Source of the DNA: a virus
DNA length: 64,000 bases
IMG/VR virus record: IMGVR_UViG_3300045988_133913
Location: 2,382-66,381 of that record
Reading direction: 5' to 3' (one strand)
A model generated the notes under the pieces. The model was not told where the DNA came from and did no database searches. It saw only the letters and a list, made by a program, of their open reading frames with translations. This document shows positions 30,924 through 56,910 of the stretch, piece by piece. The position numbers were made by a program, and so were the translations under genes. The first letter of the stretch is position 1. Every line of letters begins with the position of its first letter.

Positions 30924-31703
30924 CTAGGCAAATTTAACTTCACGCAGGCTATCGCGCCATACCTTTTCGGCAGTCGACACGCTACGCCAACCTACACTAC
31001 CCAGTTCGCCTACGTTAAACATTGCCCACGCTCCCGTCCCATTACCATGCGCAATCGCTTCCGGTTTTACGTCGTATGCCCACACTCTGCCGTTACTATC
31101 CATAGCGATAAACTTCGCCCATTCTGGAAGGACAAGTTCAGCACCGTAGTAATCCCGCACAAGACGACTTCCGTCTCCAAGTCGCTCGCACTTCTCCGCC
31201 TCAACATAACGCATCGCCACTTGACACATCTTTACACCCAACGCTGAAAGGAAGTTATCATCTGCCACACTCATTACGCCAGAATGTTTATAAAAAGCAT
31301 TCCACTGCTGATTTAGTGCAACAGGTGTATATGGCTTGCCCAATATGGACGGCAAGGAGTTCATGATGTTACATAAGGCTGTCTCCCTTGAGATTACATC
31401 CTCATTCGCCAGCGTATACTCAATGGCTATTTTGGTTTTGAGGTCAAGCATCCAGTCCTGCCCGTCGTCTTTGCAGCAGGTCAAGGTATCCTTCCAGCTT
31501 TCGCCGTCATTAAACCGGACTACCGCATCCAAGCAGGTAAGCGCGGCTCCATGCCATATCTTTCTGGCGTCCAAACAGTATGGTTCGCCAAGGAACGCAA
31601 AAATCTCACCGTCGGCGTTGGCAGCGATATATGACGCATGGCGTTTAACCTGCAAGATGCGTCCATAAAACAGGACGTTTTTGAAGTGTTCATTGATTTC
31701 CAT
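30924..31703 (-). CDS. hypothetical protein, paralog family A member 1
   Basis: 259 aa. It aligns end to end with 36408-37142 (ESWKDTLTCC / ENWKDTLTHC, VRDYYGAELVLPEWAKFIAM / VKDYYGADLIVPTWARFIAM, WRDSLREV / WRDSLQEV). Confidence 0.6.
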   Translation of the reverse strand: MEINEHFKNVLFYGRILQVKRHASYIAANADGEIFAFLGEPYCLDARKIWHGAALTCLDAVVRFNDGESWKDTLTCCKDDGQDWMLDLKTKIAIEYTLANEDVISRETALCNIMNSLPSILGKPYTPVALNQQWNAFYKHSGVMSVADDNFLSALGVKMCQVAMRYVEAEKCERLGDGSRLVRDYYGAELVLPEWAKFIAMDSNGRVWAYDVKPEAIAHGNGTGAWAMFNVGELGSVGWRSVSTAEKVWRDSLREVKFA

Positions 31704-31748
31704 AGTGTACCTCGGTTAGTTTGTGGTTAAGAGCCGCTTACGGCGGCA

Positions 31749-32009
31749 TCATAAGATTTCTTCCATAGCCTTCCGCAGACCGTGCAGCATCTTCATCGCT
31801 TTGAGACTACTACCGTCATTTAGCTCCTGCATAATCGCACCCAATTCGTCGTAGGTAGTTCTCAGTATCACGATAAAATCTTCTGCAACCGTTGTCGCTA
31901 ACTTATCCGCAAACTTGTACACATACGGGTTCAGGTCATCTGGTTGTGGCTTCAGTTTGAAACCGGCTTCAAGGGCAAGTTGTTGCACCGTATCTTTTTT
32001 AAGGTTCAT
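31749..32009 (-). CDS. hypothetical protein
   Basis: 86-aa ORF in the early arm. Confidence 0.45.
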   Translation of the reverse strand: MNLKKDTVQQLALEAGFKLKPQPDDLNPYVYKFADKLATTVAEDFIVILRTTYDELGAIMQELNDGSSLKAMKMLHGLRKAMEEIL

Positions 32010-41643: not shown

Positions 41644-42303
41644 TCAGCCTCCCATCGCGGCGGCGATTTCGGTTTCCAGTTGCGCAAGCGATTTAGGGTT
41701 CACGTCGCCCGCGCCGATAGCCGCTGCGGTCAGACTGATAGCTTCCTCGTCGGCGTGGGTCTGTAATTGGGGCGGTACTTGTGCCTGAACAGTTCCAGCG
41801 GACTGCCCGGCGGCGTAAGACTGTGGGGATTGCGGCTGTGGGGCAGGCGCACCGAGGTCAGCCATAACAGGCGTTTCCGGGGCGGGTGGCGTGATAGGAC
41901 TCGCCGCCGGGGCCGCAGCTTCTTCCGCCGGTTTTTCTTCTTTCGGCTTGCGGGTGCGCTTGGGCTTCTCAGCAGGCGCAGCGGTTTCCAGCGCTTCTAC
42001 GCGAGCCAGCAGGGCGGCGACGTCCGCGCGCAGCGTGTCGGCGTGCTTCTCGGCAGCTTCGGCGCGAGCGATGGCTTGAGCGGCGATGTCGTTAGCAACG
42101 GCTGCGCGGTGGATAGCCGTGTCCAGTGCAGCGAAGGCTTGCGATAGCGCCCCCGGCATCGGGAATTGTGAATCTTTGCCATGGATAACCCAGTCAACAA
42201 TCTTGGTGAAGTTGTTGTACATCAGGTCAAGGGTGTCGCTGTTTACTTTCGAGGAAAGTTGGGTGGTAGGTACAGAGTTTGTCATGGTATCTCCAGTTGT
42301 CAT
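41644..42303 (-). CDS. hypothetical coiled-coil / Pro-Ala-rich protein
   Basis: 219 aa. The central stretch is KPKRTRKPKEEKPAEEAAAPAASPITPPAPETP. Confidence 0.45.
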   Translation of the reverse strand: MTTGDTMTNSVPTTQLSSKVNSDTLDLMYNNFTKIVDWVIHGKDSQFPMPGALSQAFAALDTAIHRAAVANDIAAQAIARAEAAEKHADTLRADVAALLARVEALETAAPAEKPKRTRKPKEEKPAEEAAAPAASPITPPAPETPVMADLGAPAPQPQSPQSYAAGQSAGTVQAQVPPQLQTHADEEAISLTAAAIGAGDVNPKSLAQLETEIAAAMGG

Positions 42304-42324
42304 GAGGGTTTTCGGGGGTTAAAT

Positions 42325-42882
42325 CTATACGGTTTCTTCCGGTTCGTCAAGTGCGGATTCGTTGGTATCCGGCTTGGCGTCTGATGTTTCAAGGGAAAGC
42401 CATGTGTCGTGTCGCTTCTCGGCGAGGTAATCCAGAATGACTTTCACCTCTTGCTGTGAGCCAGCGTACTGCTCCAGCAGGTCGGGGTCGTAGATGCCGT
42501 CGCGCAGAATGTCACTCACACCATGCACAAGGCAGTAGTCCACGGCGTACTGGGTAGACCATGAGGTCAGCCCCTGCACTTTGGACTGCGAGAGGATGCC
42601 GTTGTTGTACATGATGTAGGCGGCGACGTCGCGCACCAGAATGAAGTGCAGGGCAAGCGCGATGCGCTTCGGGTCGTCGCGGATAACGCGCGCCTTCTGG
42701 TTCAGGGCGATGCGACGGCGTGCTTGGGCAAGCTCGCCTGCATTGTGTGGCAGCTCCAGCGCGCGGTCGTAGTCGATAAGCCGCTGTTCCGTAGCCGCAA
42801 GACGTTGCTCCAGATGTTCGATGCGGCGCATGGCTGTGTTGATGTGGTGCAGTAGCGAAGCGTTGATTTCTTTCTGTTCCAT
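42325..42882 (-). CDS. hypothetical protein
   Basis: 185 aa. Confidence 0.45.
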   Translation of the reverse strand: MEQKEINASLLHHINTAMRRIEHLEQRLAATEQRLIDYDRALELPHNAGELAQARRRIALNQKARVIRDDPKRIALALHFILVRDVAAYIMYNNGILSQSKVQGLTSWSTQYAVDYCLVHGVSDILRDGIYDPDLLEQYAGSQQEVKVILDYLAEKRHDTWLSLETSDAKPDTNESALDEPEETV

Positions 42883-45077: not shown

Positions 45078-45094
45078 TCCGGTTATTTGTGAGT

Positions 45095-45106
45095 GGGGGG
45101 GGGGGG
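45095..45106. repeat. G12 homopolymer (C12 on the coding strand) in the 5' leader of 44859-45077
   Basis: gagtGGGGGGGGGGGGtgcagg is visible directly. Confidence 0.7.
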
Positions 45107-45112
45107 TGCAGG

Positions 45113-45829: not shown

Positions 45830-45845
45830 GGTTAGACTCCAGATT

Positions 45846-45895
45846 GTTTGTAGGGGTTAGGTTGTGTGGGGCGGTGCAATCCGCACCGCCGGGGG
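45846..45895 (-). promoter_or_regulatory. conserved early-arm upstream element (CCCTAACCCC-type motif plus 8-bp-stem hairpin), copy 1
   Basis: - strand sense: CCCCCGGCGGTGCggattGCACCGCCccACACAACCTAACCCCTACAAACAA ... GGAG ... ATG. Confidence 0.35.
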
Positions 45896-45904
45896 TGGGG
45901 TGGG

Positions 45905-46246
45905 TCAGATATAGTACACTACGGGCTTGCCCTCATACTCGCCTGACCATAGTAGATAGCCTTCGTCGCTGGCTTGTTCGGTAAGCGCGTCAATGATGGT
46001 TTCATCATCGTTGTCTGCGTCGTCGGGGTCATAATATTCGTCTCTGACGTCGTCGGCGGTTAGCTCCTTAATGTCGCAACATAGCCCGATGACGTCCAGC
46101 TCGTATGGCTCGTCGTCGCCGTATGTTTCTTCAAACATTTCTATGAGCCTCTCGTAAACCCCGTAAGGGTAGTAATCGCGGTCATACTCTTTGAACTGTT
46201 GTTGCAGTTGGCGTGCAGATGTGATGGGTATAATTATGGATGCCAT
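45905..46246 (-). CDS. hypothetical acidic protein
   Basis: 113 aa, rich in Asp/Glu/Tyr. Confidence 0.45.
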   Translation of the reverse strand: MASIIIPITSARQLQQQFKEYDRDYYPYGVYERLIEMFEETYGDDEPYELDVIGLCCDIKELTADDVRDEYYDPDDADNDDETIIDALTEQASDEGYLLWSGEYEGKPVVYYI

Positions 46247-46261
46247 GATTTTTTCTCCGGT

Positions 46262-46285
46262 TTGTGTTAGGGGTTAGGGTTGTTT
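46262..46285 (-). promoter_or_regulatory. conserved upstream element, copy 2
   Basis: - strand sense: AACAACCCTAACCCCTAACACAAACCGGAG then ATG. Confidence 0.35.
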
Positions 46286-46699
46286 ACAGGTGACGGGCAG
46301 GAATGCGTGGCTATACAGCCGCGTTGAGTTATTCAGCGCAGTGGTGTAGCGGCGCATCCGCCGCAGCATGATTGCCCGCAGTCTGTCGTAGCGGTCATTG
46401 TCGCGGGCACTTAGGTAGTAGCTGGTCAGAAAGCCCGGCGGGCTCATGTGGTAGCCGTTAAGGGTTTTGTCCGCCGCCGTCTGCGCGCGGATGAAGATGT
46501 CGTCGTAGTGGTCGTAGCGGTACTTCAGCAACGCCTCGCACAGGTCAGGGCTGGCTTGCTTGTTGTAAAAGACGCCCACATGGTAGCACCTACCGCTGAA
46601 ATCGGTTGTACGGGTAGCGTAGGGAAAGCGCTTGCGCACATGGCGGTTAAGGCTGGCGCGGATGGTGATGGGGGTTTTATAGTCGGTGTGGTCGCGCAT
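46274..46699 (-). CDS. hypothetical protein
   Basis: 141 aa. Confidence 0.45.
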   Translation of the reverse strand: MRDHTDYKTPITIRASLNRHVRKRFPYATRTTDFSGRCYHVGVFYNKQASPDLCEALLKYRYDHYDDIFIRAQTAADKTLNGYHMSPPGFLTSYYLSARDNDRYDRLRAIMLRRMRRYTTALNNSTRLYSHAFLPVTCKQP

Positions 46700-46878
46700 G
46701 GCTTACTCCGGTTTGTTGGGTTGCTGTTTGGGCTGTCTCTTGAGCCGCGTGTTGCGCGTCGGATGCCGATTGGTTGAGTGTGGTCGGCGTGTCTGCGGGC
46801 GTGGGTGTGTCGGCTGGTAAAAGGTCGGGATGGGGGTGTGTAACAGCATGGGGTTTCTCCGGTTGTGGGGGGTGTGGG

Positions 46879-47382
46879 TTAGCCTTGCGCGGCAATAGCG
46901 CTGGCTACTTTGGCGGCGTAACGGGCAAGGCTCTCGCCTACCCCGCCGAACATATCGCCGCTGTCCTCGTGCAGTTGACAAACTAGCCTGCGGTTGCTAT
47001 GGCCGGGTCTAGCAAGGCAGTAATTCAGGCAGCGCTGGTAGTATTCCTCGCCTTCAGGAGAGCGCGCGGCTACCATTTCCGCCGCGTGTTGTGCGTCGTA
47101 GTACGCCGCCGCGCGCTCCAGTAATTCCTCAAACAGTATCCGCGCGCGGTTACGCTTGCGTATTGCCCGTTCGTATTCCTTGCGATATTTCGTACGGTCA
47201 AGGAAGGCCACGCCGTAATTGTAGTGGTTTGCAATCTCTCGCAGCAGGTCAGCACGGCGCGCTTCTTGCGGGCGCGCGTCCGTACTCCATTTCCGGTGTA
47301 GTTGGTATGCCTGTTCGGCGTAGGCAAGGGCGTCGGCAAAGGTTGTTTTTATGCCGTAGACGCTAGTGGTGAGGATGTGCAT
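46879..47382 (-). CDS. hypothetical protein
   Basis: Start moved to ATG 47382 with an AGGAG SD 8 nt upstream. Confidence 0.45.
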   Translation of the reverse strand: MHILTTSVYGIKTTFADALAYAEQAYQLHRKWSTDARPQEARRADLLREIANHYNYGVAFLDRTKYRKEYERAIRKRNRARILFEELLERAAAYYDAQHAAEMVAARSPEGEEYYQRCLNYCLARPGHSNRRLVCQLHEDSGDMFGGVGESLARYAAKVASAIAAQG

Positions 47383-47411
47383 TTTTATACTCCTATTTTT
47401 GTATGGGTGGG

Positions 47412-47912
47412 TTATTCCTGTCCGGTTTGGGCAAGGATTTCCTCGCACTTGGCGAGGGCTTGGGCAAACACTTCGCCACGTGTCATGCCCTTCAAAATGG
47501 GGTCATGGGCGGCAGGTGCGTAGGCGTTGAAGGCGACGGCGTCATCGCGCAGGGCGTCGCGCAGGTATTCCACGTCTTCTAGCTGGTCGGTGCGGTAGTC
47601 ATCTTCCAGCAGCCGTATGGCAAGTTCTGGCAAAATCCCTTCCTGTCCATAGTACGGGCTGAAGTACCACTTGCACAGCCCATGCTCGTCGTCTAAGACA
47701 AGCGTGTCGTATCCATTGGTAAGAAAGACGCTCCCGCTTTGTTGATTAAAGTCAATATAGACGCCTACGTCGTCAAACGATTCAGGTAGGGCGTTGCTGA
47801 TGCCCTCCCCCGCGTCTGCGTAAGCGCGTAGCAGATTGGCTGCTAGGTCAAGCTCATATGCGCCGAACCTGTCCAAGGTTGTCATGGGGTATAGGGTGTT
47901 TTGTTTTTTCAT
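47412..47912 (-). CDS. hypothetical acidic protein
   Basis: 166 aa. Confidence 0.45.
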   Translation of the reverse strand: MKKQNTLYPMTTLDRFGAYELDLAANLLRAYADAGEGISNALPESFDDVGVYIDFNQQSGSVFLTNGYDTLVLDDEHGLCKWYFSPYYGQEGILPELAIRLLEDDYRTDQLEDVEYLRDALRDDAVAFNAYAPAAHDPILKGMTRGEVFAQALAKCEEILAQTGQE

Positions 47913-47924
47913 GTTTTATCCTTG

Positions 47925-47965
47925 TGTTGTGGATTAGGGTTGTGGCGGTGCGTAGCACCGCCGGG
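47925..47965 (-). promoter_or_regulatory. conserved upstream element with hairpin, copy 3
   Basis: - strand sense: CCCCCGGCGGTGCtacGCACCGCCACAACCCTAATCCACAACACAAGGA ... ATG. Confidence 0.35.
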
Positions 47966-47987
47966 GGTTTATTGTGTGGGTGGGTTA

Positions 47988-48749
47988 TCATTCATATTCG
48001 AGTATTTCACCAACGTTTTCTTCCAGCCACTCTCTGGCTAATTCAGCCAGTTTTTTGCGGTCGGTTTCTGAATACGGCAGGAGTTTTTCGTCTTTGACAA
48101 TATCTGCGCAGATTTTATTGATGACTTCTTCTTTAACGTCTTTATCCCAGTAAATATAGCAGTCGTCCATGTATTCATCTACATATACTCCCCATTCATC
48201 TACGCCACCAATGGTAATCGTGAACTTACCAGAAATGGGAGAATCATAGAAAATGTTCGTTATATAGGCGCGGTCTATATATTCGTGTGCCTGTTTAGCG
48301 ACGTCATTATAAAAATAAACGTCGATACAATAGCCTTGTGAATAACCGAATGCCCTAAATCCGTCTAACTCGTTTAATGCGTCTGCATTTTCTAACATTT
48401 TGACATAATCTTTCGCTGTTACGTCTGAAAGGTCGGCTAGCATATCTGAAAGCTCATCCCCCGCAACAAAGCCAGCTTCGTAGGGGTCATAACGCATCCA
48501 TTCTTCGGTAAGGGCGCGCGGGTTTTCCTCAAATTCAGCAATCTGTTCGGCGCTGTAATGTTTTTTTGTTTTCGCACCTTCACTAGCGAAAACGATTATA
48601 GCTGATAAGTCGTGCCGGGTATTATAAACCCCTACCATAGGGGTATCGTTCATAAAGTCGTCGAAGTAATCGCTAGCCAAGTTGATGTCATAGCGAAAAC
48701 TATGGCTGAATTCTGCGTCAATAATGGTTTTGAAGGGTAAGTTTTTCAT
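47988..48749 (-). CDS. hypothetical protein encoded in a low-GC island
   Basis: 253 aa. GC is ~42% against ~60% in the flanks. Asp/Glu/Tyr-rich. Confidence 0.5.
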   Translation of the reverse strand: MKNLPFKTIIDAEFSHSFRYDINLASDYFDDFMNDTPMVGVYNTRHDLSAIIVFASEGAKTKKHYSAEQIAEFEENPRALTEEWMRYDPYEAGFVAGDELSDMLADLSDVTAKDYVKMLENADALNELDGFRAFGYSQGYCIDVYFYNDVAKQAHEYIDRAYITNIFYDSPISGKFTITIGGVDEWGVYVDEYMDDCYIYWDKDVKEEVINKICADIVKDEKLLPYSETDRKKLAELAREWLEENVGEILEYE

Positions 48750-48802
48750 GGTTTTTATCCTTGTTTGTGGGTAGCGTGTTAGTCTTGTATCGGTTGCCCG
48801 TG

Positions 48803-49330
48803 CTACGCCATCATGTCGCAGCGGTCGGCAAGTCTGCCGCTTGTGGCGGCATCCACCATCGCGCTCACCGCGTGGCGCACCGCGTAGTCAGCGTCGTCGC
48901 GGATGTCGCAATAGTCGCGGCGACGGTGTGGGTACTTGGCGAGCTTGTCGCGCAAGGCGCACGTCGCGGCAACCGCGCAATCGCGTAGGACGCGGCGCGC
49001 GCCGGGGTAGCTACCGGCACTATACGCGCACGCCAGCGCAAGCGTCTCAAGCGGCAGACGGCACAGCTCCAGCCATGCCGCGTCATAGGCGCGGGTTGCC
49101 AACAAGGAAGCGTCTGGCGCGTCTGCGGCGGTAAGGTCTGCGACGCGCCACAGGTTCGCCTGTGCGTCGAGGTCGTCGGCGAGGTCGCCAATTTCGCTGG
49201 CGAGGTTGTCGGCGACGTCAGCCGCCAGCAGGTTATGCGGGCGCGGCAGACGGTCGAGGTGCGCCGGGTTAAGGCTCTTTTGCAGAGCATCAAGGTCTGC
49301 GATGGTTTTGGGTTGGGTTTGATTGCTCAT
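48803..49330 (-). CDS. hypothetical protein
   Basis: 175 aa, Ala/Asp/Leu-rich. It is the most upstream gene of the compact early cluster. Confidence 0.45.
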   Translation of the reverse strand: MSNQTQPKTIADLDALQKSLNPAHLDRLPRPHNLLAADVADNLASEIGDLADDLDAQANLWRVADLTAADAPDASLLATRAYDAAWLELCRLPLETLALACAYSAGSYPGARRVLRDCAVAATCALRDKLAKYPHRRRDYCDIRDDADYAVRHAVSAMVDAATSGRLADRCDMMA

Positions 49331-49345
49331 TTTTGACTCCTTTTA

Positions 49346-49366
49346 TACTTTTGTTAGGGGTTGATG
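49346..49366 (-). promoter_or_regulatory. conserved upstream element, copy 4
   Basis: - strand sense: CATCAACCCCTAACAAAAGTATAAAAGGAGTCAAAA then ATG. Confidence 0.35.
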
Positions 49367-49372
49367 CGTTTG

Positions 49373-49412
49373 TATCGGATAGCACCCGGAATAGTATGGA
49401 TGCTATCCGATA
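49373..49412. repeat. 12-bp-arm inverted repeat (TATCGGATAGCA / TGCTATCCGATA)
   Basis: A perfect inverted repeat with a 16-nt spacer, just upstream of the copy-4 element. Confidence 0.5.
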
Positions 49413-49471
49413 CAAGCTAGCCGTGGTTTGTGGTTTAGGGTGGCTAGCTTGCATCGCGTTGTGTCGTCTGA

Positions 49472-49506
49472 TACTTATATAAGTACAGGCTGGCGACGTT
49501 GTCGCC
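49472..49506. promoter_or_regulatory. AT palindrome (TACTTATATAAGTA) followed by a GGCGAC-GTT-GTCGCC hairpin with a 3-nt loop
   Basis: Seen directly. Confidence 0.3.
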
Positions 49507-50344
49507 GTTAGTGTTTTATGCGTCGTCTTTGTTGGCGCATTTCAGACATTTACAATGGCTTCCGCAGTCTTTTTCAGCAGTTACATTCACCATTTTCAGT
49601 CTATTCCGCGTGCCGGTACGTTTCGTTTTGTGTCCTTGCCAGCATCCGCGTCATGTAGTGGTTCGCGCGCTATCGTATGCACGCGGCTACATTCTTTACC
49701 GTTTCCCGCTTGCTACTTTGCTAAGGTAGCGCGCTTGTTACGTTTTCCCCTATTGTTAAAGATTGCGCCTTGCACCCGGATGAGGCTAGCGCGAGGTTAA
49801 TTCCTCAATGTATCCGATTTTTCGTGCAGCGGATAGTAGCTGCCGTGCATATTGTTTAGGTGTTAGCACTTGCCTTTGCAAGGTATGGCACGTTGTGTTG
49901 TTGTGCATTGCCTTGCTTGATGCCAGCGGCTCGCCGTAAGGCTCGCTCGCTGTATGGGGCGCATTATAGCGGTTTGTGGGTGGCTTGTCAATAGGCAATC
50001 TTGTTTTTTGTTGATTGCTTATTGCGTGATGATAGGTTGTTGGCAACCATATCAGCATCGCGCCGCCGTCATATTGTTACCGCTATAACGTCGTCCTGTT
50101 TGATTACGGTAATGCCTTTGTCGTGCCAACGTTGAAAACTATTTAGATAACATACAGATATTGGAAAACGTTGAAAGAGTAGAAAAGGATTGGCGACGGA
50201 TTAGCAGCGCAAAATTGTCGGCGAGCGGGAAATTTTTGGCGGATTGTTGTCCTTATATATTGTGCGCAGACGGCACCAACTTTTGCACGCGGTTTTGTTG
50301 TCGCCGTTTTTGTACGCTAACTTTTTCGAGCCGTCGTTGTGTTT

Positions 50345-50359
50345 TTGCTTTTGTTGCCG
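50345..50359. promoter_or_regulatory. second GC hairpin with a GTT loop (TGCCGC-GTT-GCGGCA)
   Basis: Seen directly. Same architecture as 49492-49506. Confidence 0.3.
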
Positions 50360-50369
50360 CGTTGCGGCA

Positions 50370-50560
50370 GTTTGCGACGGATTTTGTCAAGATTAAGATT
50401 TTGAAATGTTAAATGCTGAATTTTGTTAGGTAGTAGGATTCATGCGTAGTTAAGATGGATTTTGAAAAAAAATTGAATTCAATACACAAAATCTTGAATA
50501 TCTTAAATCGGAAAATTAAGGTATTGATTTTGTTCACATTTAATAGCCGAATCTTGAAAA
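50370..50560. repeat. iteron-like array of (G)AT(T/C)TTGAA repeats
   Basis: gattttgt, aagattttgaaatg, gaattttg, ggattttgaaaaaaaa, aatcttgaa, tatcttaaa, tgattttgt and aatcttgaa give about 8 copies in ~190 bp. Confidence 0.45.
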
Positions 50561-50834
50561 GGGGGGTTTTTTGTTGAATCAATATTTTATTTGTTGATTA
50601 TATATAATCCCGAAAAAAACCTGTTTGTTTTGACTATATTAAGATTGGCGATGTTAATTAACATCGGGATTTTGGGGGTTCGGCGAAAGAGAGAGGGGTT
50701 TTGTGATTGTGGGATTATTTGCACGGGCGAAAAATGATGGCGGGGTTTTTGGGATTGCACGGCGCGCAAAAAGATATTACCAAAACATGGACAACTCATT
50801 AAAACCAAAAAGGTCGAAAAAAGGAAAAAAGGGG

Positions 50835-50878
50835 GTATATATATATATATTCAATATATTATTTTTTTTTTTTTTTTT
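50835..50878. repeat. (TA)7 microsatellite followed by a T18 homopolymer (DNA-unwinding-element-like)
   Basis: tatatatatatata ... tttttttttttttttttt is visible directly. Confidence 0.8.
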
Positions 50879-51399
50879 AGCCGATTTTTTCCTCTCCCTC
50901 CTGCTGCTGTTGAATGCCGCCGCCGCCCGCAACCCCCTGTTTTTTCTAGGGTTTTTTATTTCCAGTCAATATAAATCCACATAACATTATTATTGTACAA
51001 TGTTGTAAACATTATTTGTTCAACATTTAAATCTTAACAAAAAAACCATCAACATTTTCAACACGTCTCGAAATTTATTTGCAATCCTCGAAATTCCGCT
51101 TCACGTCTACGCTTCGCGCCCCTCAAAACATTTCTGACGTGTTAATTAACATTTCCCGATTTTTTATTGACAACATTAACCTCAAATTATGTTGGTAACA
51201 TTATTCGTTATTCCAGATAATCCAATAATTCAGCGCCGCAAATGTTATTTTTCGCCGCGCTTTTCCTCGCCATTTCCGCCTGCCGTTTTACGTCATGTTC
51301 AATACTTATTAACACCCTAGTATAATTTAACGCTAATCAATCTTTGCATCTTGATAACCACGCCGCCACCTATCATCCCAAACCGAGATGATAACGTAC

Positions 51400-52504: not shown

Positions 52505-53233
52505 GTGTCCTCACAAACCACCCCCACCAGTTCGCTAAACCTCAACGAGCAGGCAGCAAGCGCGTTGCGGTCTGCCACCACCCCTGCCTCAACTCCTCCC
52601 GCCGCCAAAACCACCCTCGCACCAGTCGTTCCAGACGACGCCCCGCCTCCGGTGGAGTTCACCCTGTGGGAAGTGCTGGCATCCGACCTCGCTATCGGTA
52701 TGACACCTACCCCCGCCATACTGAAAGCCTACGATATTAGCAAGGAACAACTTGACCTCCTGCAAGCCAACCCCTTCTTCCAGAAGCTGCTGCAAGCCAA
52801 GCAGGACGAAATCGCCGAGAGTTCCCGCAACCCGTCGGAAGCCGCCTTCGTGCAGAAAATGCGCTTTATCGCGGACAAGGCAACCCCCCGCCTGCTCGCG
52901 CGCCTGACCGACAACGAGACGACCAACAAGGACTTCGCCACACTCCTCCAGATGGTTGTGCGGCTTGCCCGGCGTGAACCCCCGCCGCCTCGGGACGACG
53001 CCCCGCTAGCCCCCGCGCTCACAGGCCCTACCGTTACGTTTAACATCGTCGGTGTGCCGGGGTTAGACCATCTGGCGGCAGCTCAGGTAGTGCAGGCCCC
53101 ACCCATCCCGCATACCCCCTCCCCTCCGCTCTCTCACCCGACGTCCACGCCGCCAACCCCCGACACGACCCTGCCCTCACCCGTCGGCCCTGAACCTTCC
53201 GCTGACGACCTGTTGCAGATGGGGGTGCTGTGA
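52505..53233 (+). CDS. small terminase subunit candidate
   Basis: A 242-aa ORF directly upstream of the large terminase, overlapping it by TGATG. GTG start. The call rests on position only. Confidence 0.4.
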   Translation: MSSQTTPTSSLNLNEQAASALRSATTPASTPPAAKTTLAPVVPDDAPPPVEFTLWEVLASDLAIGMTPTPAILKAYDISKEQLDLLQANPFFQKLLQAKQDEIAESSRNPSEAAFVQKMRFIADKATPRLLARLTDNETTNKDFATLLQMVVRLARREPPPPRDDAPLAPALTGPTVTFNIVGVPGLDHLAAAQVVQAPPIPHTPSPPLSHPTSTPPTPDTTLPSPVGPEPSADDLLQMGVL

Positions 53234-54714
53234 TGGCGACCACCTACCGCGCATACCCTACGATGGAGCGATTCCACGCGGACTACGGCAAATATTTCAA
53301 CCGCTTCGTCGCGGGACCCCCGGGAAGCGGCAAGTCGGTCGGAAGCGCTTTGGAGCTAATCGGTATCGGGCTGCGGCAAGAGCCCACGGCAGAAGGAATA
53401 CGCCCGACGAAATTCGCCATCATCCGCTCTACCTACGGCGAGCTGGAGCGTACCACGCTGGAAACGCTTCGCCAGTGGCTGCCGCCCCAGTACACCAAAA
53501 TCAACAGGAGCAAGCCGATAACGGTTCACTGCCGCCTGCCGCTGCCAGACCATACCATCGCCGATATGCGATTCGAGTTGATAGCCATCGAGTCCTACTT
53601 CGACCTCGGCAAGCTCGACTCGTATGAGGCGACCGCTATCTGGTTAAACGAGATGACCGGGCTGCCGAAAGAGCTGGTGGGTAAGGCGGGCGAACGGGTC
53701 GGGCGTTATCCGCCTGCGAATATGTGGGACGATGGCAAGAACCATTGCACGCTCTACTGTGTCATCGGCGACTACAACTACCCGCCCAAGGACCACTGGC
53801 TGGTCGAGTACCTCCACTCCGGCACGCTGCCACCTAACACCATGCTCTACGAGCAGCCGCCTGCGCTTATCGAGACGGTCAATCCCGACACAGGCGAGAC
53901 AACCTACGCGGTAAACCCCCACGCCGAGAACCTGACTAACCTCGACGGTGGGCAGAAATATCTGAACGACCTTGCGACCTACGAGCGCATGGGGCTGACC
54001 GATATGATTCAGACCCGCCTCTTGTGCCGCTATGGTCGTGCAGGCGGCGACGGCAAGAAGGTCTTTACCAACTTCGACAAGGACTTCCACGTGGCGGACA
54101 ACCCGCTTGAACCCGCCAAGCTCACCGACTGCCTCATCAGCATCGACACGTCAGGTATCCACCCCTGCGCGCTCATCTGGCAGCACGTGCGGTCAAAGTG
54201 GCAGATAGCCGATGGGATTTACGGCGAGGAGATGGGACTGGAGGAGTTCATCGACGACGTGCTGACACCGCTTCTTACTCTGCGCTACGCCGGATGCAAC
54301 ACGCTCTGTGTCTGCGACCCGGCAAACGCCCGCGACGCGCGCACCGCCATCACGCCTATCGACCTGCTGCGGGAAAAAGGCTACGACGCTATACCTGCGC
54401 CCACTAACCGCTTCAAGGAGCGCCTGCAAGCCAGCGAGATAATGCTGAACCGTCGCGAGAAGGGAAGCCTCGTGATTAGCCCCTCGCTTGGCGAACTGGT
54501 GGATGCGATGGACGGCGGGTATCAGTACCGCAAGCTCAAAGTCGGGGGGCTGAACACGGTCTTCTCCGCGCAGCCCGAGAAGAACAAATACAGCCACTGG
54601 GCAGATGCCTTCCAGTACGGCGCGCTGCATATCACCTCAAGTGTGCTGTCAGATGATGCGCTGGACAAAGCCAGACGGCTCGCGGCGGCGAGCTTCGCCC
54701 GCGCGCGGGCATGA
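53233..54714 (+). CDS. terminase large subunit
   Basis: Walker A-like GPPGSGKS near the N-terminus, an Asp-containing segment (ISIDTSG) consistent with the C-terminal nuclease domain, and position before the portal gene. Confidence 0.75.
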   Translation: MATTYRAYPTMERFHADYGKYFNRFVAGPPGSGKSVGSALELIGIGLRQEPTAEGIRPTKFAIIRSTYGELERTTLETLRQWLPPQYTKINRSKPITVHCRLPLPDHTIADMRFELIAIESYFDLGKLDSYEATAIWLNEMTGLPKELVGKAGERVGRYPPANMWDDGKNHCTLYCVIGDYNYPPKDHWLVEYLHSGTLPPNTMLYEQPPALIETVNPDTGETTYAVNPHAENLTNLDGGQKYLNDLATYERMGLTDMIQTRLLCRYGRAGGDGKKVFTNFDKDFHVADNPLEPAKLTDCLISIDTSGIHPCALIWQHVRSKWQIADGIYGEEMGLEEFIDDVLTPLLTLRYAGCNTLCVCDPANARDARTAITPIDLLREKGYDAIPAPTNRFKERLQASEIMLNRREKGSLVISPSLGELVDAMDGGYQYRKLKVGGLNTVFSAQPEKNKYSHWADAFQYGALHITSSVLSDDALDKARRLAAASFARARA

Positions 54715-54801: not shown

Positions 54802-56910
54802 ATGGCAGTCATCCAGCACATCGACGATAACCAAGACCTCAAGGCGTCTCGCATTGAGAAGACCATCACCCCGCATGAGGAGCTAGGGCTTGAGGTCATG
54901 CGCCAGTTCCGCCATGCCCGCACAGTCCGCGCCAGCAAACAGGTCGGCGAGTACACGCTCGACAAGCTGCTGCATGAGTGCTACAAGGCGCGGGACGACC
55001 AGTTGCTTTGCGACGAGGCGGAGCTGCGCGAGAAGTTCCCGCCGTGGGCAGCGATGCCTGTTAGCATCGTGGCGTTTAAGGTCAATATTCTGGTGAGCCT
55101 TATCCGTGAGACGCTGGTCGATATTAGCCGTGCGCCGTTTATCGTTGATCCTACCCCAGAGCCTGAGATTCCACAGGATGAAATCCGCGCCCGGATGCAG
55201 GCAATTTACGACGAGATTACGTCCATCAGCGCGCAGGTGGTGCAGGAGCAGCAGGCGTTCGTAGCCGGCGCAGTTGAGGGCGGCGCTGCGCCCTCCGACG
55301 CGGTAGCTTCATCCGAACTACCAGGGTTGCCTCCAGAAGCCGTCATGGAGCTTCTCAAGCAGGCTAAGGTGGAGATGCGCCAGCAGGTAATCGACCACGC
55401 CAAGCAGCAGGCGCGGTTACTGGAACAGGAGCTGTACGACAAGACGACCGAGGGCGGCTATCGCCGTGCGGTGATGGAGTTCGCGGATGACTTCGCGACT
55501 TACCCTTATGCCTGTATGCACGGACCGTTTCCGACGGTGCGCACCGAGAGTGTGTGGAAGGATAACAAGTTCACCGAGGAGACCCGGGTGTCGTGGGTAT
55601 TCGAGCGGGTGTCGCCGTTTGATTTTTACTGGACGGAAGACAGTACCAATACCCAAGACGGGACGGCGGTGTTTATCCGTAAGATGGTCGGTTATGACTA
55701 CCTCTACGACTGCCGGGAACTCGCCAAGTCCGACGATAAGAGCGGCTACCGCTTCGACGTCATCGACGAGCTTATCGAGGATGCGCAGGAAGGTCATGTG
55801 CCGCGGGAGTGGCTGCTGTGGTTCGACCAGAGCCCAGAGACCCGCCAGACGTCGCTGGAGTGGTCGCGCGGGCAGAGTGCGGAAATCCTTATCCGCTATG
55901 GGCGGTTCAGCGGGTATGAGCTGAAAGAAATGGGTTTTTTGGATTTGGAGGAAAAGAAGCTCTACGAGACGAAAATCATCATGTGCGGCGGGCAGGTTAT
56001 CTACTGCCAGATTAACAACAACCCTAGTCAGTACAAGCGCCCGGTGTTTACCGCCAGCTTCGAGAGCCGCAACAATTCCATCGTCGGCTGCGGGCTGGCA
56101 CAGAAACTCCTCTCGCTGGACAAGGCATACCGCGCCACGATGAACCTCGCGCTGTACAACCTGTCGCTGGCGAGCGAACCTGTGACCGAGGTGGAGGTTA
56201 ATCGCATCTTGCAGTACGTGCCGGATGACTGGATTGAAGACCCGAAAATCGCGCCCGGTATGGTGGTGGTTGCCGACGGCGACCGCATGGGCAACGGCTC
56301 ACGGGCTATCAAGTTCACCCAGATTCCGACAACCACCGAGGCGGCGCTGCGTCTTGCCAACTACATCTTCGAGCAGGCGCACGTTATCAGTAACATCCCC
56401 GCCGCCTTGCATGGGCAGCCTGTGGGTAGCGGGGCTAACCGCACGGTGCGTGGGCTGCTGACGCTTCAGGGCAATACGCTGAAACCCATTCAGTCAGCGC
56501 TCATGAATCTGGACTTGGGCGTTATCGAGCCGATGGTGACGCTGCTGTATATGCTGCTGGTTATGTACGACGAGGACTTCGAGTACACAGGAGACGCGAA
56601 GATTGTTGCTAAGGGCGCGGCGAGTATGGTCGAGCGCGAGATGGACAAGCAGACGGCGATGGAGAATATGCAGATTCTGGGGCAGCTTGGCGAGCTGATA
56701 CCAGAACATATCCGCCTGCCCGTCATCGAGAACCTGCTGCGCACTGCCGACATCCTGAAGCCGGGTCAGACGCTTTCGCCGCCTGTGATGCAGCAGATAG
56801 CCTCGCAGTTAGGGCAGATGCAACAAGGCGCACCAGACGGCATACCGGGACAAGCCCCGCAGCCGCAAGGTGCGCCTGTACCACAGGAGCAAACGCTCCC
56901 GCAGACGTGA
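54802..56910 (+). CDS. portal protein
   Basis: 702 aa directly after the terminase, with a Q/P-rich C-terminus. The call is by position and size. Confidence 0.6.
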   Translation: MAVIQHIDDNQDLKASRIEKTITPHEELGLEVMRQFRHARTVRASKQVGEYTLDKLLHECYKARDDQLLCDEAELREKFPPWAAMPVSIVAFKVNILVSLIRETLVDISRAPFIVDPTPEPEIPQDEIRARMQAIYDEITSISAQVVQEQQAFVAGAVEGGAAPSDAVASSELPGLPPEAVMELLKQAKVEMRQQVIDHAKQQARLLEQELYDKTTEGGYRRAVMEFADDFATYPYACMHGPFPTVRTESVWKDNKFTEETRVSWVFERVSPFDFYWTEDSTNTQDGTAVFIRKMVGYDYLYDCRELAKSDDKSGYRFDVIDELIEDAQEGHVPREWLLWFDQSPETRQTSLEWSRGQSAEILIRYGRFSGYELKEMGFLDLEEKKLYETKIIMCGGQVIYCQINNNPSQYKRPVFTASFESRNNSIVGCGLAQKLLSLDKAYRATMNLALYNLSLASEPVTEVEVNRILQYVPDDWIEDPKIAPGMVVVADGDRMGNGSRAIKFTQIPTTTEAALRLANYIFEQAHVISNIPAALHGQPVGSGANRTVRGLLTLQGNTLKPIQSALMNLDLGVIEPMVTLLYMLLVMYDEDFEYTGDAKIVAKGAASMVEREMDKQTAMENMQILGQLGELIPEHIRLPVIENLLRTADILKPGQTLSPPVMQQIASQLGQMQQGAPDGIPGQAPQPQGAPVPQEQTLPQT

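What the first reader, a model, noticed from the sequence alone, without database searches (positions are those of the whole stretch)
45846..49366. Recurrent 'CAACCCTAACCCCTAAC' element (often with an 8-bp-stem GGCGGTGC hairpin) upstream of early genes
At least four early genes (starts 45829, 46246, 47912, 49330) are preceded, 20-45 nt before the SD, by a near-identical C/A-rich motif on the coding strand. The forms are ACAACCTAACCCCTACAAACAA, CAACCCTAACCCCTAACACAAAC, ACAACCCTAATCCACAACACAA and CATCAACCCCTAACAAAAG. Two copies carry an immediately upstream CCCCCGGCGGTGC-(N3-5)-GCACCGCC hairpin. This looks like a phage-specific promoter or an RNA-processing/antitermination site family for the early gene cluster. 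It does not resemble the sigma70 consensus.
Basis: seen in the sequence. Interest (0 to 1): 0.6.

Follow-up and report, generated by a model that had tools for sequence, protein, structure and literature searches.

The report
G-free C/A leaders before early genes
The repeated 'CAACCCTAACCCC' sequence is real, but it is most likely part of a structure-free, G-less stretch of messenger RNA that helps ribosomes start on each early phage gene (sometimes behind a small RNA hairpin), and not a new kind of promoter.

Summary
The core word occurs three times in the window, always on the coding strand just 5' of an early-gene Shine-Dalgarno, and this exceeds what composition alone gives. These are the most similar members of a wider class: all nine consecutive early genes (starts 49330 to 45077, minus strand) have G-free, U-poor C/A leaders. 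G-depletion continues through the first ten codons, and predicted RNA openness around the start codon is about 1000-fold higher than for other genes. In 12 related metagenomic phage genomes the composition is conserved but the sequence is not. Orthologous leaders carry 0, 1, 2 or 7 CCCTAA units or unrelated C/A strings. The hairpins keep pairing through G.U wobbles and one compensatory change that fit only the transcript strand, and they are precisely present or absent between genomes. No phage RNA polymerase or sigma factor is detectable. A perfect TTGACA-17-TATAAT promoter, with invariant hexamers in seven relatives, heads the cluster. Best reading: a translation-initiation leader (C/A enhancer or standby-like landing pad) plus an optional RNA hairpin, forming junction modules of a mosaic early operon. 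A promoter is unlikely, and a Rho-loading (rut-like) role is not excluded. All functional claims are inferred.

The parts
45841..45869 (-). G-free C/A leader of the RusA-like gene (ATG 45829). Contains motif copy 1, ACAACCTAACCCCTACAAACAA (45865-45844), followed by SD GGAG at 45840-45837.
   Evidence: Relatives carry two leader alleles at this position, one without the TAACCCC word.
45870..45890 (-). Hairpin 1: GGCGGTGC-GGATT-GCACCGCC (8-bp stem, 5-nt loop). On the transcript it follows the stop codon TGA (45907-45905) and a C-run (45904-45891).
   Evidence: The stem is conserved and the loop variable in relatives. It is absent in L006.
46259..46286 (-). G-free C/A leader of the 113-aa gene (ATG 46246), with motif copy 2. 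The stop codon TAA of the upstream 141-aa ORF lies inside it (46276-46274).
   Evidence: Orthologous leaders have 0, 1, 2 or 7 CCCTAA-type units.
47922..47943 (-). G-free C/A leader of the 166-aa gene (ATG 47912), with motif copy 3, ACAACCCTAATCCACAACACAA.
47944..47962 (-). Hairpin 2: GGCGGTGC-TAC-GCACCGCC (8-bp stem, 3-nt loop). On the transcript it follows the stop codon TAA (47990-47988) and the C/A-run 47987-47963.
   Evidence: region MFE -18.6 kcal/mol, z = -4.6.
49343..49366 (-). C/A leader of the first early gene (ATG 49330), with weak motif copy 4 (CAACCCCTAAC).
49363..49456 (-). Three consecutive hairpins directly 5' of the first early leader (stems of 14, 11+ and 5 bp). Their sequences differ between relatives but pairing is kept.
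   Evidence: MFE -48 kcal/mol, z = -7.9; 6 of 30 pairs compensated.
49963..49991 (-). Consensus sigma70 promoter TTGACA-17-TATAAT heading the leftward early cluster, about 630 nt upstream of the first early ATG.
   Evidence: 12 of 12 match. (hexamers invariant and spacer sequence variable in 7 relatives).
47394..47416 (-). G-free C/A leader (TAACCCACCCATACAAAAATA) of the 167-aa gene starting at ATG 47382. It begins with the stop codon TAA of the upstream gene (47414-47412).
46861..46882 (-). G-free C/A leader (CTAACCCACACCCCCCACAACC) of a 48-aa ORF starting at ATG 46849. Relatives have a 24-nt hairpin inserted here (GGCGGCGC-ACCCT-GCGCCGTC).
46700..46735 (-). C/A-rich leader of the 141-aa gene (ATG 46699). 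It lies inside the 3' end of the upstream 48-aa ORF. It is a crossover site for gain or loss of the 141-aa gene in relatives.
45081..45108 (-). G-free leader with a C12 run (CACCCCCCCCCCCCACTCACAAATAACC) before the GTG 45077 gene.
48750..48790 (-). C/A-rich (two G) leader of the 253-aa gene (ATG 48749). It is part of a short junction patch conserved in all relatives while the flanking genes differ.

Best explanation
The motif is the most repetitive part of a G-free, U-poor, C/A-rich 5' leader that precedes every gene of the early operon of an uncultured ~66-kb podovirus-like phage.

**Proposed mechanism (every functional step is inferred; none was measured).**
1. Host sigma70 RNA polymerase starts at the conserved consensus promoter (49991-49963) and transcribes the leftward early genes as a polycistronic RNA.
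2. At each gene junction the RNA reads: stop codon, C-rich run, optional GC hairpin, 20-30 nt of A and C only, SD, a G-free spacer, AUG, then G-poor first codons.
3. With no G and little U, this stretch cannot base-pair. The ribosome-binding region stays open and acts as a C/A-type translational enhancer or 30S landing (standby-like) site in a 56% G+C genome.
4. The hairpin, where present, is an RNA structure on the transcript. It most likely insulates or stabilises the neighbouring cistrons, or serves as the 5' structural flank of the landing site.

**Why the four sites look alike.**
- The alphabet is restricted to A and C.
- TAA is the only stop codon possible without G, which gives TAACCC words.
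- CCCTAA/CCCCTAA units slip.
- Recombination between leaders shuffles the mosaic early genes.
For: **Shown by computation**
- G-free, T-poor C/A tracts: 11 in the minus strand of 44.8-49.5 kb against 1.06 expected (maximum 5 in 200 simulations). There are only 3 on the whole plus strand, and late genes lack them.
- Nine early genes compared with 45 other genes:
  - G at -35..-13: 4% vs 22% (p = 1e-5).
  - T at -35..-13: 9% vs 26% (p = 6e-5).
  - G in the first 10 codons: 7% vs 23% (p = 5e-5).
  - Probability that -25..+9 is fully unpaired: 3e-3 vs 3e-6 (p = 5e-4).
- 38 non-redundant early leaders from 12 genomes are 40% A, 42% C, 7% G and 11% T. There is no position-specific consensus except AA before GGA.
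- The same architecture, with different hairpin sequences, occurs in relatives with only 63-65% protein identity.
- Sequence is not conserved at orthologous sites, and copy number varies (0, 1, 2 or 7 units).
- Hairpin pairing is 128/128 cells on the sense strand against 122/128 on the antisense, with G.U at three stem positions plus one T-A to C-G compensation.
- The hairpin is precisely present or absent between genomes.
- The sigma70 promoter is conserved, and no phage RNAP or sigma is detected.

**From the literature**
- C/A-rich stretches upstream of ribosome-binding sites enhance translation, and CA tails of 16-18 nt give maximal standby activity (PMC5934652).
Against: - No transcript, ribosome-binding or expression data exist. 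The host is unknown.
- RNA openness is a prediction that follows almost automatically from the composition, so it is not independent evidence.
- TAACC, CCCTA and CTAAC are about 3-fold over-represented even given composition (the leaders are not independent). The three strong copies are more alike than composition explains. A sequence-specific reader of CCCTAAC is therefore not excluded.
- Classical standby sites rescue structured ribosome-binding sites, but these are predicted open.
- The junctions also satisfy a rut-like C/G >= 3 criterion over 78 nt.
- The strand preference of the hairpins rests on only 4-5 independent substitutions.
- The hairpin's own role is the least certain step.
Confidence: 0.55

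Rival explanations
1. **Rho-loading (rut-like) sites.** Each junction is a Rho-dependent attenuator laid out like lambda tR1 (C-rich rutA, hairpin, C/A-rich rutB). It would couple early transcription to translation, or allow temporal control by an unknown antiterminator.
For: - Sense-strand 78-nt windows with (C+1)/(G+1) >= 3 sit on the junctions 47988-47870, 46898-46756, 46305-46197 and 45880-45792.
- C-rich runs flank both sides of the hairpins.
- The lambda tR1 order RutA-BoxB-RutB is documented (PMC4344519).
- A highly structured, conserved ~630-nt leader lies upstream and could in principle be a put-like modifier.
Against: - The tracts always end at the SD and continue into the first codons. 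Some lie inside translated upstream ORFs (46735-46700), where ribosomes would exclude Rho.
- U is strongly avoided (9% vs 26%) although UC dimers are good Rho ligands, and A is as enriched as C.
- No boxA is present, and hairpin loops are not conserved.
- Equally C-rich windows occur in the late region.
- Attenuators before nearly every gene of an operon with one promoter would be costly.
Confidence: 0.15
2. **Binding sites for one trans-acting factor.** CCCTAAC-containing C/A tracts, including the C/A-rich hairpin loops of the upstream leader RNA, would be recognised by a host or phage RNA-binding protein or by a G/U-rich small RNA. Known parallels are Hfq on A-rich motifs and GcvB on C/A-rich enhancers. 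This would make the early genes a post-transcriptional regulon.
For: - TAACC occurs 14 times against 4.1 expected, and CCCTA 12 times against 4.7, in 38 leaders.
- The three W copies are more similar than composition predicts.
- C/A-rich loops are displayed on covarying stems in the leader RNA.
- C/A-rich enhancers are known sRNA targets (PMC5934652).
Against: - The word is absent from many orthologous leaders (6 of 11 relatives at the RusA-like gene).
- Its position and copy number vary (distance from the last TAA to GGA ranges from 3 to 48 nt).
- The leaders are related by descent and recombination, so the enrichment statistics are inflated.
- No candidate binding protein or complementary G/U-rich RNA was identified in the window.
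Confidence: 0.12
3. **The first reader's reading.** The motif, with the hairpin as an upstream terminator or a structural part, is a promoter for a phage-specific transcription system.
For: - The motif recurs upstream of genes, is non-sigma70, and sits 12-37 nt before the ATG, a geometry compatible with short leaders.
- A 3,564-aa virion-size ORF of unknown function exists.
- PeSL cassettes of T4-type phages combine a stem-loop and a promoter at similar junctions (PMC2839356).
Against: - No RNAP or sigma is detected in the window or the missing 2.3 kb. The giant ORF has no hit to N4 vRNAP families, Pfam or PDB, and no DxDGD or T7 motif-B signature.
- The motif is not conserved at orthologous sites and its length is variable.
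- The G-free signal extends past the ATG.
- Hairpin wobbles fit the non-template strand and the loops vary, unlike N4 promoters.
- A conserved consensus sigma70 promoter heads the cluster, and a second sigma70-like promoter lies at 42350-42322.
Confidence: 0.05
4. **Recombination scars.** The similarity among leaders is mainly a by-product of illegitimate or homologous recombination and slippage at low-complexity junctions of a hyperplastic region, with no selected function of its own.
For: - Early genes between 49327 and 46872 are replaced among relatives while short junction patches persist.
- Gain or loss of the 141-aa gene has its crossover inside the C/A leaders.
- There is a (CCCTAA)x7 expansion in L003 and a precise 24-nt hairpin indel.
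Against: Neutral scars would not produce:
- Strict G avoidance in all nine leaders.
- Its extension into coding N-termini.
- Its persistence in relatives with 63-65% identity and unrelated sequences.

This process is better seen as acting on top of a selected composition.
Confidence: 0.1

Closest known systems
C/A-rich translational enhancers and ribosome standby sites (CA-repeat tails; the tisB standby site made of a single-stranded region plus a 5' stem-loop)
   Same: - A 20-30 nt single-stranded C/A tract sits immediately 5' of the SD.
- Its length is in the range that gives maximal effect for CA tails (16-18 nt or more).
- In several junctions a stable stem-loop flanks the tract on its 5' side (PMC5934652, PMC6690012).
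   Different: - The ribosome-binding sites here are predicted open, not sequestered, so this is an enhancer or unstructured initiation region and not classical standby.
- The feature is applied systematically to every gene of a phage early operon and continues into the first codons.
- No 30S or S1 binding was tested.
PeSL cassettes (promoter-early stem-loops) of T4-type phages
   Same: - Short composite intergenic modules run from the upstream stop codon through a stem-loop to the SD and start codon.
- They are concentrated between ORFan genes in a hyperplastic early region.
- They are associated with insertion, deletion and replacement of genes between close relatives (PMC2839356).
   Different: - PeSLs are defined by a strong sigma70-consensus promoter with an AT-rich upstream region. 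No promoter-like site exists in these junctions, and they are C/A-rich, not AT-rich.
- Terminator activity of the stem-loops is untested, and they lack U-tracts.
Lambda tR1 / nutR region (rutA - boxB hairpin - rutB)
   Same: - A C-rich, G-poor tract lies on each side of a short GC hairpin in an early phage transcript.
- The C/G ratio meets rut-like criteria (PMC4344519).
   Different: - There is no boxA.
- The loop sequence is not conserved, so there is no N-type recognition.
- The tracts abut the SD and start codon and avoid U.
- They occur at nearly every junction.
N4-type DNA-hairpin early promoters for virion RNA polymerase
   Same: Short GC hairpins lie upstream of early genes in a podovirus that also encodes a ~3,500-aa virion-size protein.
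   Different: - N4 promoters need a template-strand hairpin with a conserved loop (-10G/-11G) and a T7-like vRNAP (PMC4496689).
- Here the loops vary (9 different loops), and the stems are 8 bp.
- Wobble pairs fit the non-template (RNA-sense) strand.
- The giant ORF shows no RNAP signature.
REP-like extragenic palindromes acting as intercistronic mRNA stabilisers
   Same: A short GC-rich palindrome with a conserved stem recurs at several intercistronic sites and is precisely present or absent between related genomes.
   Different: - There are only 2-3 copies per phage genome.
- No multi-copy family with this stem was found in bacterial genomes (scattered single hits in unrelated taxa).
- The stabiliser function is untested.
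- The REP properties themselves are recalled from general knowledge and were not checked in a paper here.

Membership tests
C/A-rich translational enhancer / standby-type leader | Single-stranded, low-structure tract of about 16 nt or more immediately upstream of the ribosome-binding site | tested here: met
   - G-free tracts of 20-31 nt end 0-3 nt before the SD.
- Mean unpaired probability at -30..-1 is 0.75 vs 0.49.
- The 35-nt open probability is 3e-3 vs 3e-6. This is a prediction only.
C/A-rich translational enhancer / standby-type leader | C/A-rich composition | tested here: met
   38 non-redundant leaders are 40% A, 42% C, 7% G and 11% T.
C/A-rich translational enhancer / standby-type leader | 5' flanking stable stem-loop (tisB-type standby) | tested here: inconclusive
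   - It is present at 3 of 9 junctions in the window: 45870-45890, 47944-47962, and the three-hairpin element 49363-49456.
- It is dispensable in some relatives.
C/A-rich translational enhancer / standby-type leader | Ribosome-binding site sequestered in structure and rescued by the tract (classical standby) | tested here: not met
   The SD and AUG regions are predicted open. The element is therefore filed as an enhancer or unstructured initiation region, not classical standby.
C/A-rich translational enhancer / standby-type leader | Measured 30S/S1 binding and increased translation | not testable with these tools
   This needs toeprinting, binding assays or reporter fusions.
Single-subunit phage RNAP promoter (T7/T3/SP6 type) | Genome encodes a T7-like RNA polymerase | tested here: not met
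   - No hit in PHROGs, Pfam or PDB for any early or middle protein or for the giant ORF.
- The missing 2.3 kb has only ORFs of 232 aa or less.
Single-subunit phage RNAP promoter (T7/T3/SP6 type) | About 23-bp sequence of fixed length, conserved among copies and at orthologous sites | tested here: not met
   - Orthologous leaders carry 0, 1, 2 or 7 units or unrelated C/A strings.
- There is no positional consensus.
N4-type hairpin promoter | Virion RNA polymerase with T7-like catalytic motifs | tested here: not met
   - The 3,564-aa ORF has no N4 vRNAP PHROG, no Pfam hit and no PDB hit.
- It has no motif-B pattern with the arginine, and no DxDGD.
- A very divergent enzyme cannot be excluded by sequence alone.
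N4-type hairpin promoter | Template-strand hairpin with a conserved loop (-10G/-11G) and loop-closing G:C (PMC4496689) | tested here: not met
   - Nine different loops of 3 or 5 nt occur.
- G.U wobbles fit only the non-template/RNA strand: 128/128 cells paired vs 122/128.
PeSL cassette | Strong sigma70-consensus promoter inside the cassette | tested here: not met
   No promoter-like site (at least 9 of 12 match) lies between 44.8 and 49.4 kb. The only perfect one is at 49991-49963, upstream of the whole cluster.
PeSL cassette | Stem-loop between the upstream stop codon and the downstream SD and start, in a hyperplastic ORFan region, associated with gene shuffling | tested here: met
   mosaic gene content, conserved junction patches, a gene indel with its crossover in the leaders, and a hairpin indel.
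Lambda-type nut/tR1 site | C-rich, G-poor rut region of about 70-80 nt | tested here: met
   C/G >= 3 in 78-nt windows at four junctions. The criterion is not specific: late-region windows also pass.
Lambda-type nut/tR1 site | boxA consensus and a boxB hairpin with a conserved loop | tested here: not met
   - No CGCTCTTA (up to 1 mismatch) lies next to any junction. The total count is below chance (32 vs 50 expected).
- The loops vary.
Lambda-type nut/tR1 site | Rho-dependent termination and factor-dependent antitermination | not testable with these tools
   This needs in vitro Rho assays or bicyclomycin experiments.

The most novel reading that the evidence does not exclude
The C/A tracts, the junction hairpins and the conserved ~630-nt structured leader RNA (whose hairpin loops are themselves C/A-rich) may together form a phage-specific post-transcriptional control system.

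One factor (Rho, Hfq, S1 or a phage protein or RNA) would read CCCTAAC-type C/A tracts at every early junction. The abundant leader RNA would act as a cis-antiterminator (put-like) or as a sponge that frees the early messages.

None of the evidence excludes this. Nothing supports it directly beyond the word enrichment, the rut-like composition and the covarying leader structure.
Probability: 0.1. Interest if true: 0.7.

Novelty: new variant of a known kind. Interest (0 to 1): 0.3.

Why it matters
If correct, this is a clean natural example of a phage solving the problem of RNA structure in a G+C-rich genome. It writes every early ribosome-binding region in a two-letter (A/C) alphabet and pairs that with optional RNA hairpins.

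- **For annotation:** G-free tracts flag true start codons. Two starts, 47382 and 46849, were corrected this way. They also warn against reading recurrent upstream words as promoters.
- **For phage evolution:** the data show promoter-less junction modules, with microsatellite-like CCCTAA units, acting as crossover points for shuffling early ORFan genes. This is a variant of the PeSL idea.
- **For synthetic biology:** it offers compact, structure-free leaders for expression design.

It does not reveal a new transcription system.

Tried and rejected
- **Megablast of 45-50 kb against 50,697 phage records:** no match. No annotated close relative could be used.
- **Rfam, gathering thresholds and a permissive scan of 44.5-51.7 kb:** nothing relevant.
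- **Exact motif scan of IMG/VR:** 49 loci, almost all unrelated telomere-like (CCCTAA)n or other contexts. Only the phage's own relatives were informative.
- **N4-like hypothesis, prompted by the 3,564-aa ORF:** rejected. There are no vRNAP family, Pfam or PDB hits and no catalytic motifs, and the hairpin properties do not match.
- **T7-like RNAP hidden in the part of the genome outside the window:** rejected.
- **Intrinsic terminators:** the hairpins lack a U-tract on the sense strand. The antisense tails (GGGGGTTTATT, GGGGGTGGGG) are not consistently T-rich among relatives.
- **Dimeric-protein operator:** unlikely, because the half-site spacing is 3 or 5 nt and the stem substitutions are wobble-type.
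- **RNase III sites:** 8-bp stems are too short, and stem lengths range from 5 to 23 bp in relatives.
- **Lambda boxA:** absent.
- **Host REP-like origin of the hairpin:** It is uninformative and did not identify the host.
- **RusA-like protein in GTDB genomes:** no prophage or host hit.
- **Nearest cultured relative (Rhizobium phage RHph_TM3_14A):** it has no G-free leader system, so it cannot serve as an experimental proxy.
- **G-quadruplex potential of the G-rich template strand** (for example (TTAGGG)7 in L003): considered but not tested.

Full report
**What the window is.** The 64-kb window is most of a ~66-kb phage genome.
- It encodes a terminase (53230-54714), a portal (54802-56910), internal virion proteins and a 3,564-aa ORF (8068-18762) on the plus strand.
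- On the minus strand it has a leftward cluster (49330 down to 22002) with small ORFan genes followed by replication genes: a RusA-like protein, thymidylate synthase, DNA polymerase, helicase and primase-helicase.
- No annotated phage is close. Megablast finds nothing. The DNA polymerase is ~30% identical to KPP25-like Pseudomonas and Rhizobium phages, and the portal is at most 26% identical to any cultured phage.
- Close relatives exist only as metagenomic contigs, several with Human Microbiome Project-style sample numbers. Two are ~66.3 kb. The window lacks ~2.3 kb, which holds only ORFs of 232 aa or less.

**The observation.**
- The core AACC[CT]?TAA[CT]CC occurs exactly three times in both strands of the window. 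All three are directly upstream of early genes, and none is inside a coding region.
- Even allowing for the odd composition of these tracts, three tracts sharing that core is unexpected (0.04-0.05 expected; 0 of 5000 simulations).
- The fourth copy is weak.
- The motif abuts the SD. It does not lie 20-45 nt before it.

**The motif is the tip of a broader feature.**
- G-free, T-poor C/A tracts of 20 nt or more are strongly concentrated on the minus strand between 45.0 and 49.5 kb: 11 against 1.06 expected, with a maximum of 5 in 200 simulations. Only three lie on the whole plus strand.
- Two tracts exposed start codons that crude ORF calling had missed (47382 and 46849).
- After that correction, all nine consecutive early genes have such leaders. 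Late genes have none.
- Compared with 45 other genes in the window:
  - G at -35..-13 is 4% vs 22% (p = 1e-5).
  - T at -35..-13 is 9% vs 26% (p = 6e-5).
  - G in the first ten codons is 7% vs 23% (p = 5e-5).
  - The predicted probability that -25..+9 is completely unpaired is 3e-3 vs 3e-6 (p = 5e-4).
- A signal that spans the SD-AUG spacer and the N-terminal codons belongs to the mRNA initiation region, not to an upstream promoter.

**Comparative evidence.** Twelve related genomes were examined.
- The early region is a mosaic. The AT-rich non-coding region upstream (51557-49327) and everything from the RusA-like gene onward are conserved. The genes in between are replaced, gained or lost, and only short junction patches persist.
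- At orthologous junctions the composition is kept but the sequence is not.
  - The RusA-like gene has two leader alleles, and only one carries TAACCCC.
  - The 113-aa gene's leader reads ACAACCCTAACCCCTAAC..., ACAACCCTAACCCAAAC..., ACAACCTTAACCCTAACC..., ACAACCCAAAC..., ACAACCCTAACAC..., or ACAA(CCCTAA)x7... in different genomes.
- The 141-aa gene is present or absent, with the crossover inside two C/A leaders.
- In 38 non-redundant leaders the 26 nt before the SD are 40% A, 42% C, 7% G and 11% T, with no positional consensus except AA before GGA.
- The words TAACC, CCCTA and CTAAC are ~3-fold enriched over composition, at variable positions.
  - Part of this is explained by TAA being the only stop codon possible in G-free sequence.
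  - Upstream ORFs actually stop at the TAA of TAACCC words at 47990-47988, 47414-47412 and 46881-46879, and inside the motif at 46276-46274.
- Relatives with only 63-65% protein identity keep the same order: stop, C-run, GC hairpin, C/A tract, SD. Their hairpin sequences are unrelated.
- The nearest cultured relative lacks the system.

**The hairpins.** Sixteen distinct instances of the GGCGGTGC family were aligned.
- All 128 stem cells pair on the sense strand. Controls with the partner slid by one to three columns give 25-65%.
- Variation consists of U.G or G.U at three stem positions, plus one T-A to C-G compensation. On the antisense strand the six wobble cells become A.C mismatches, giving 122/128.
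- These are only 4-5 independent events, so the preference for the transcript strand is suggestive, not proven.
- The loops vary freely: nine different loops of 3 or 5 nt.
- The hairpin is missing upstream of the RusA-like gene in L006. It is precisely absent (24 nt) from the window's 46849 leader, although relatives have it there.
- No U-tract follows it.
- Directly before the first early leader there are three consecutive hairpins (49363-49456; MFE -48 kcal/mol, z = -7.9). Their sequences differ among relatives but keep pairing, with 6 of 30 pairs compensated.

**How early genes are transcribed.**
- A perfect TTGACA-17-TATAAT lies at 49991-49963 on the minus strand.
- In seven relatives both hexamers are invariant while the 17-nt spacer drifts. 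This is the expected signature of a working sigma70 promoter.
- A second sigma70-like promoter at 42350-42322 is conserved in distant relatives.
- No RNA polymerase or sigma-like protein is detectable.
- The giant ORF has no DxDGD and no T7 motif B with its arginine, and only one D.D.D, at residue 18.
- Host RNA polymerase therefore suffices, by inference, to explain early transcription.

**Mechanism proposed (inferred).** The early operon RNA carries a structure-free A/C landing region at each junction that keeps the ribosome-binding site open.
- Known behaviour supports this. C/A-rich stretches upstream of ribosome-binding sites are translational enhancers, and CA tails of 16-18 nt give maximal standby activity (PMC5934652).
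- A functional standby site can consist of a single-stranded region plus a 5' stem-loop (PMC6690012).
- The strong avoidance of U as well as G argues for selection against any pairing, and not merely for C-richness.
- The hairpins are most likely generic RNA structural elements that insulate or stabilise neighbouring cistrons or flank the landing site. This is the weakest step.

**Rivals.**
- *Rho loading.* The layout resembles lambda tR1 (RutA-BoxB-RutB; PMC4344519), and the junctions pass a C/G >= 3 test. Against this, the tracts are welded to the SD and start codon, some lie inside translated sequence, U is avoided, boxA is absent, and late-region windows pass the same test.
- *A sequence-specific trans-factor* is allowed by the word enrichment, but disfavoured by the variable presence, position and copy number.
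- *The promoter reading* is disfavoured on all counts above. N4-type hairpin promoters require a template-strand hairpin with a conserved loop and a vRNAP (PMC4496689).
- *PeSL cassettes* of T4-type phages (PMC2839356) are the closest evolutionary analogue: junction modules between shuffled ORFans. They are defined by an internal sigma70 promoter, which is absent here.

**Verdict.**
- The finding is real, but it is best explained as a variant of known things and not as a new transcription signal.
- Interest is modest (0.3).
- The most interesting leftover is the conserved ~630-nt structured leader RNA upstream of the first early gene, which has no Rfam family and displays C/A-rich loops.

Noticed in passing
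window 49331-49962 (minus strand): The ~630-nt stretch between the consensus sigma70 promoter and the first early gene looks like a structured non-coding leader RNA.
- It is conserved in blocks, and its indels are not multiples of three.
- RNAalifold on 7 relatives gives 134 pairs, 36 of them with compensatory changes.
- Several loops are C/A-rich (ACAACAACACAAC, ACCCTAAACCACAAACCAC, AGGACACAAAACGAAACGTAC).
- It has no Rfam match.
   Followed up: partly
window ~49472-49487 (minus strand): A palindrome, TACTTATATAAGTA, lies inside the leader and is invariant in all relatives. It could be an operator or a hairpin. Its function is unknown.
   Followed up: no
window 50000-51350: This is an AT-rich (GC ~0.44), almost ORF-free region, 82% conserved in L001.
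- It has an A17 run (50864-50880), an (AT)7 run and about nine AATGTT/AAATGTT words (about 50990-51220, minus strand).
- The words look like iterons.
- It may be an origin of replication or lie near the genome ends.
   Followed up: no
window 42322-42350 (minus strand): A second sigma70-like promoter (TTGACG-17-TAGATT) lies upstream of gene 41644-42303. It is conserved as TTGACT...TATAAA in the 63-65% relatives L072 and L073, and is followed by a C/A-rich leader (TTTAACCCCCGAAAACCCTC).
   Followed up: partly
L003 3686-3740: A (CCCTAA)x7 array sits at the motif position in the leader of the 113-aa gene. Its complement is the vertebrate-telomere-type hexamer TTAGGG. This shows that the unit slips, and the complementary strand would be G-quadruplex-prone. 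An assembly artefact is not excluded.
   Followed up: partly
window 45092-45103 (minus strand): A homopolymeric C12 run lies in the leader of the GTG 45077 gene. It is longer in L055 and replaced in L002. This is either length polymorphism or sequencing noise.
   Followed up: no
window 8068-18762 (+): This 3,564-aa ORF downstream of internal-virion-protein genes has no Pfam or PDB hit, only one weak PHROG hit of unknown function, and no recognisable RNA polymerase motifs. It is a giant virion-size protein of unknown function.
   Followed up: partly
window 46703-46849 and 46879-47382 (minus strand): Two gene starts were re-assigned using the G-free leader plus SD.
- A 48-aa Pro/Thr/Arg/Gln-rich ORF starts at ATG 46849 and is conserved as a 48-49-aa ORF in relatives.
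- A 167-aa ORF starts at ATG 47382, not at GTG 47448.
   Followed up: yes
window 48761-48848: A short patch covering the 3' end of the first early ORF and the next junction is conserved (77-85%) in all relatives, while the flanking genes differ. It is a likely recombination boundary.
   Followed up: partly
window 31714-31760 (minus strand): The same junction architecture occurs outside the early block: hairpin GCCGC-CGTAA-GCGGC followed by CTCTTAACCACAAACTAACC and an SD, before gene 30924-31703.
   Followed up: no
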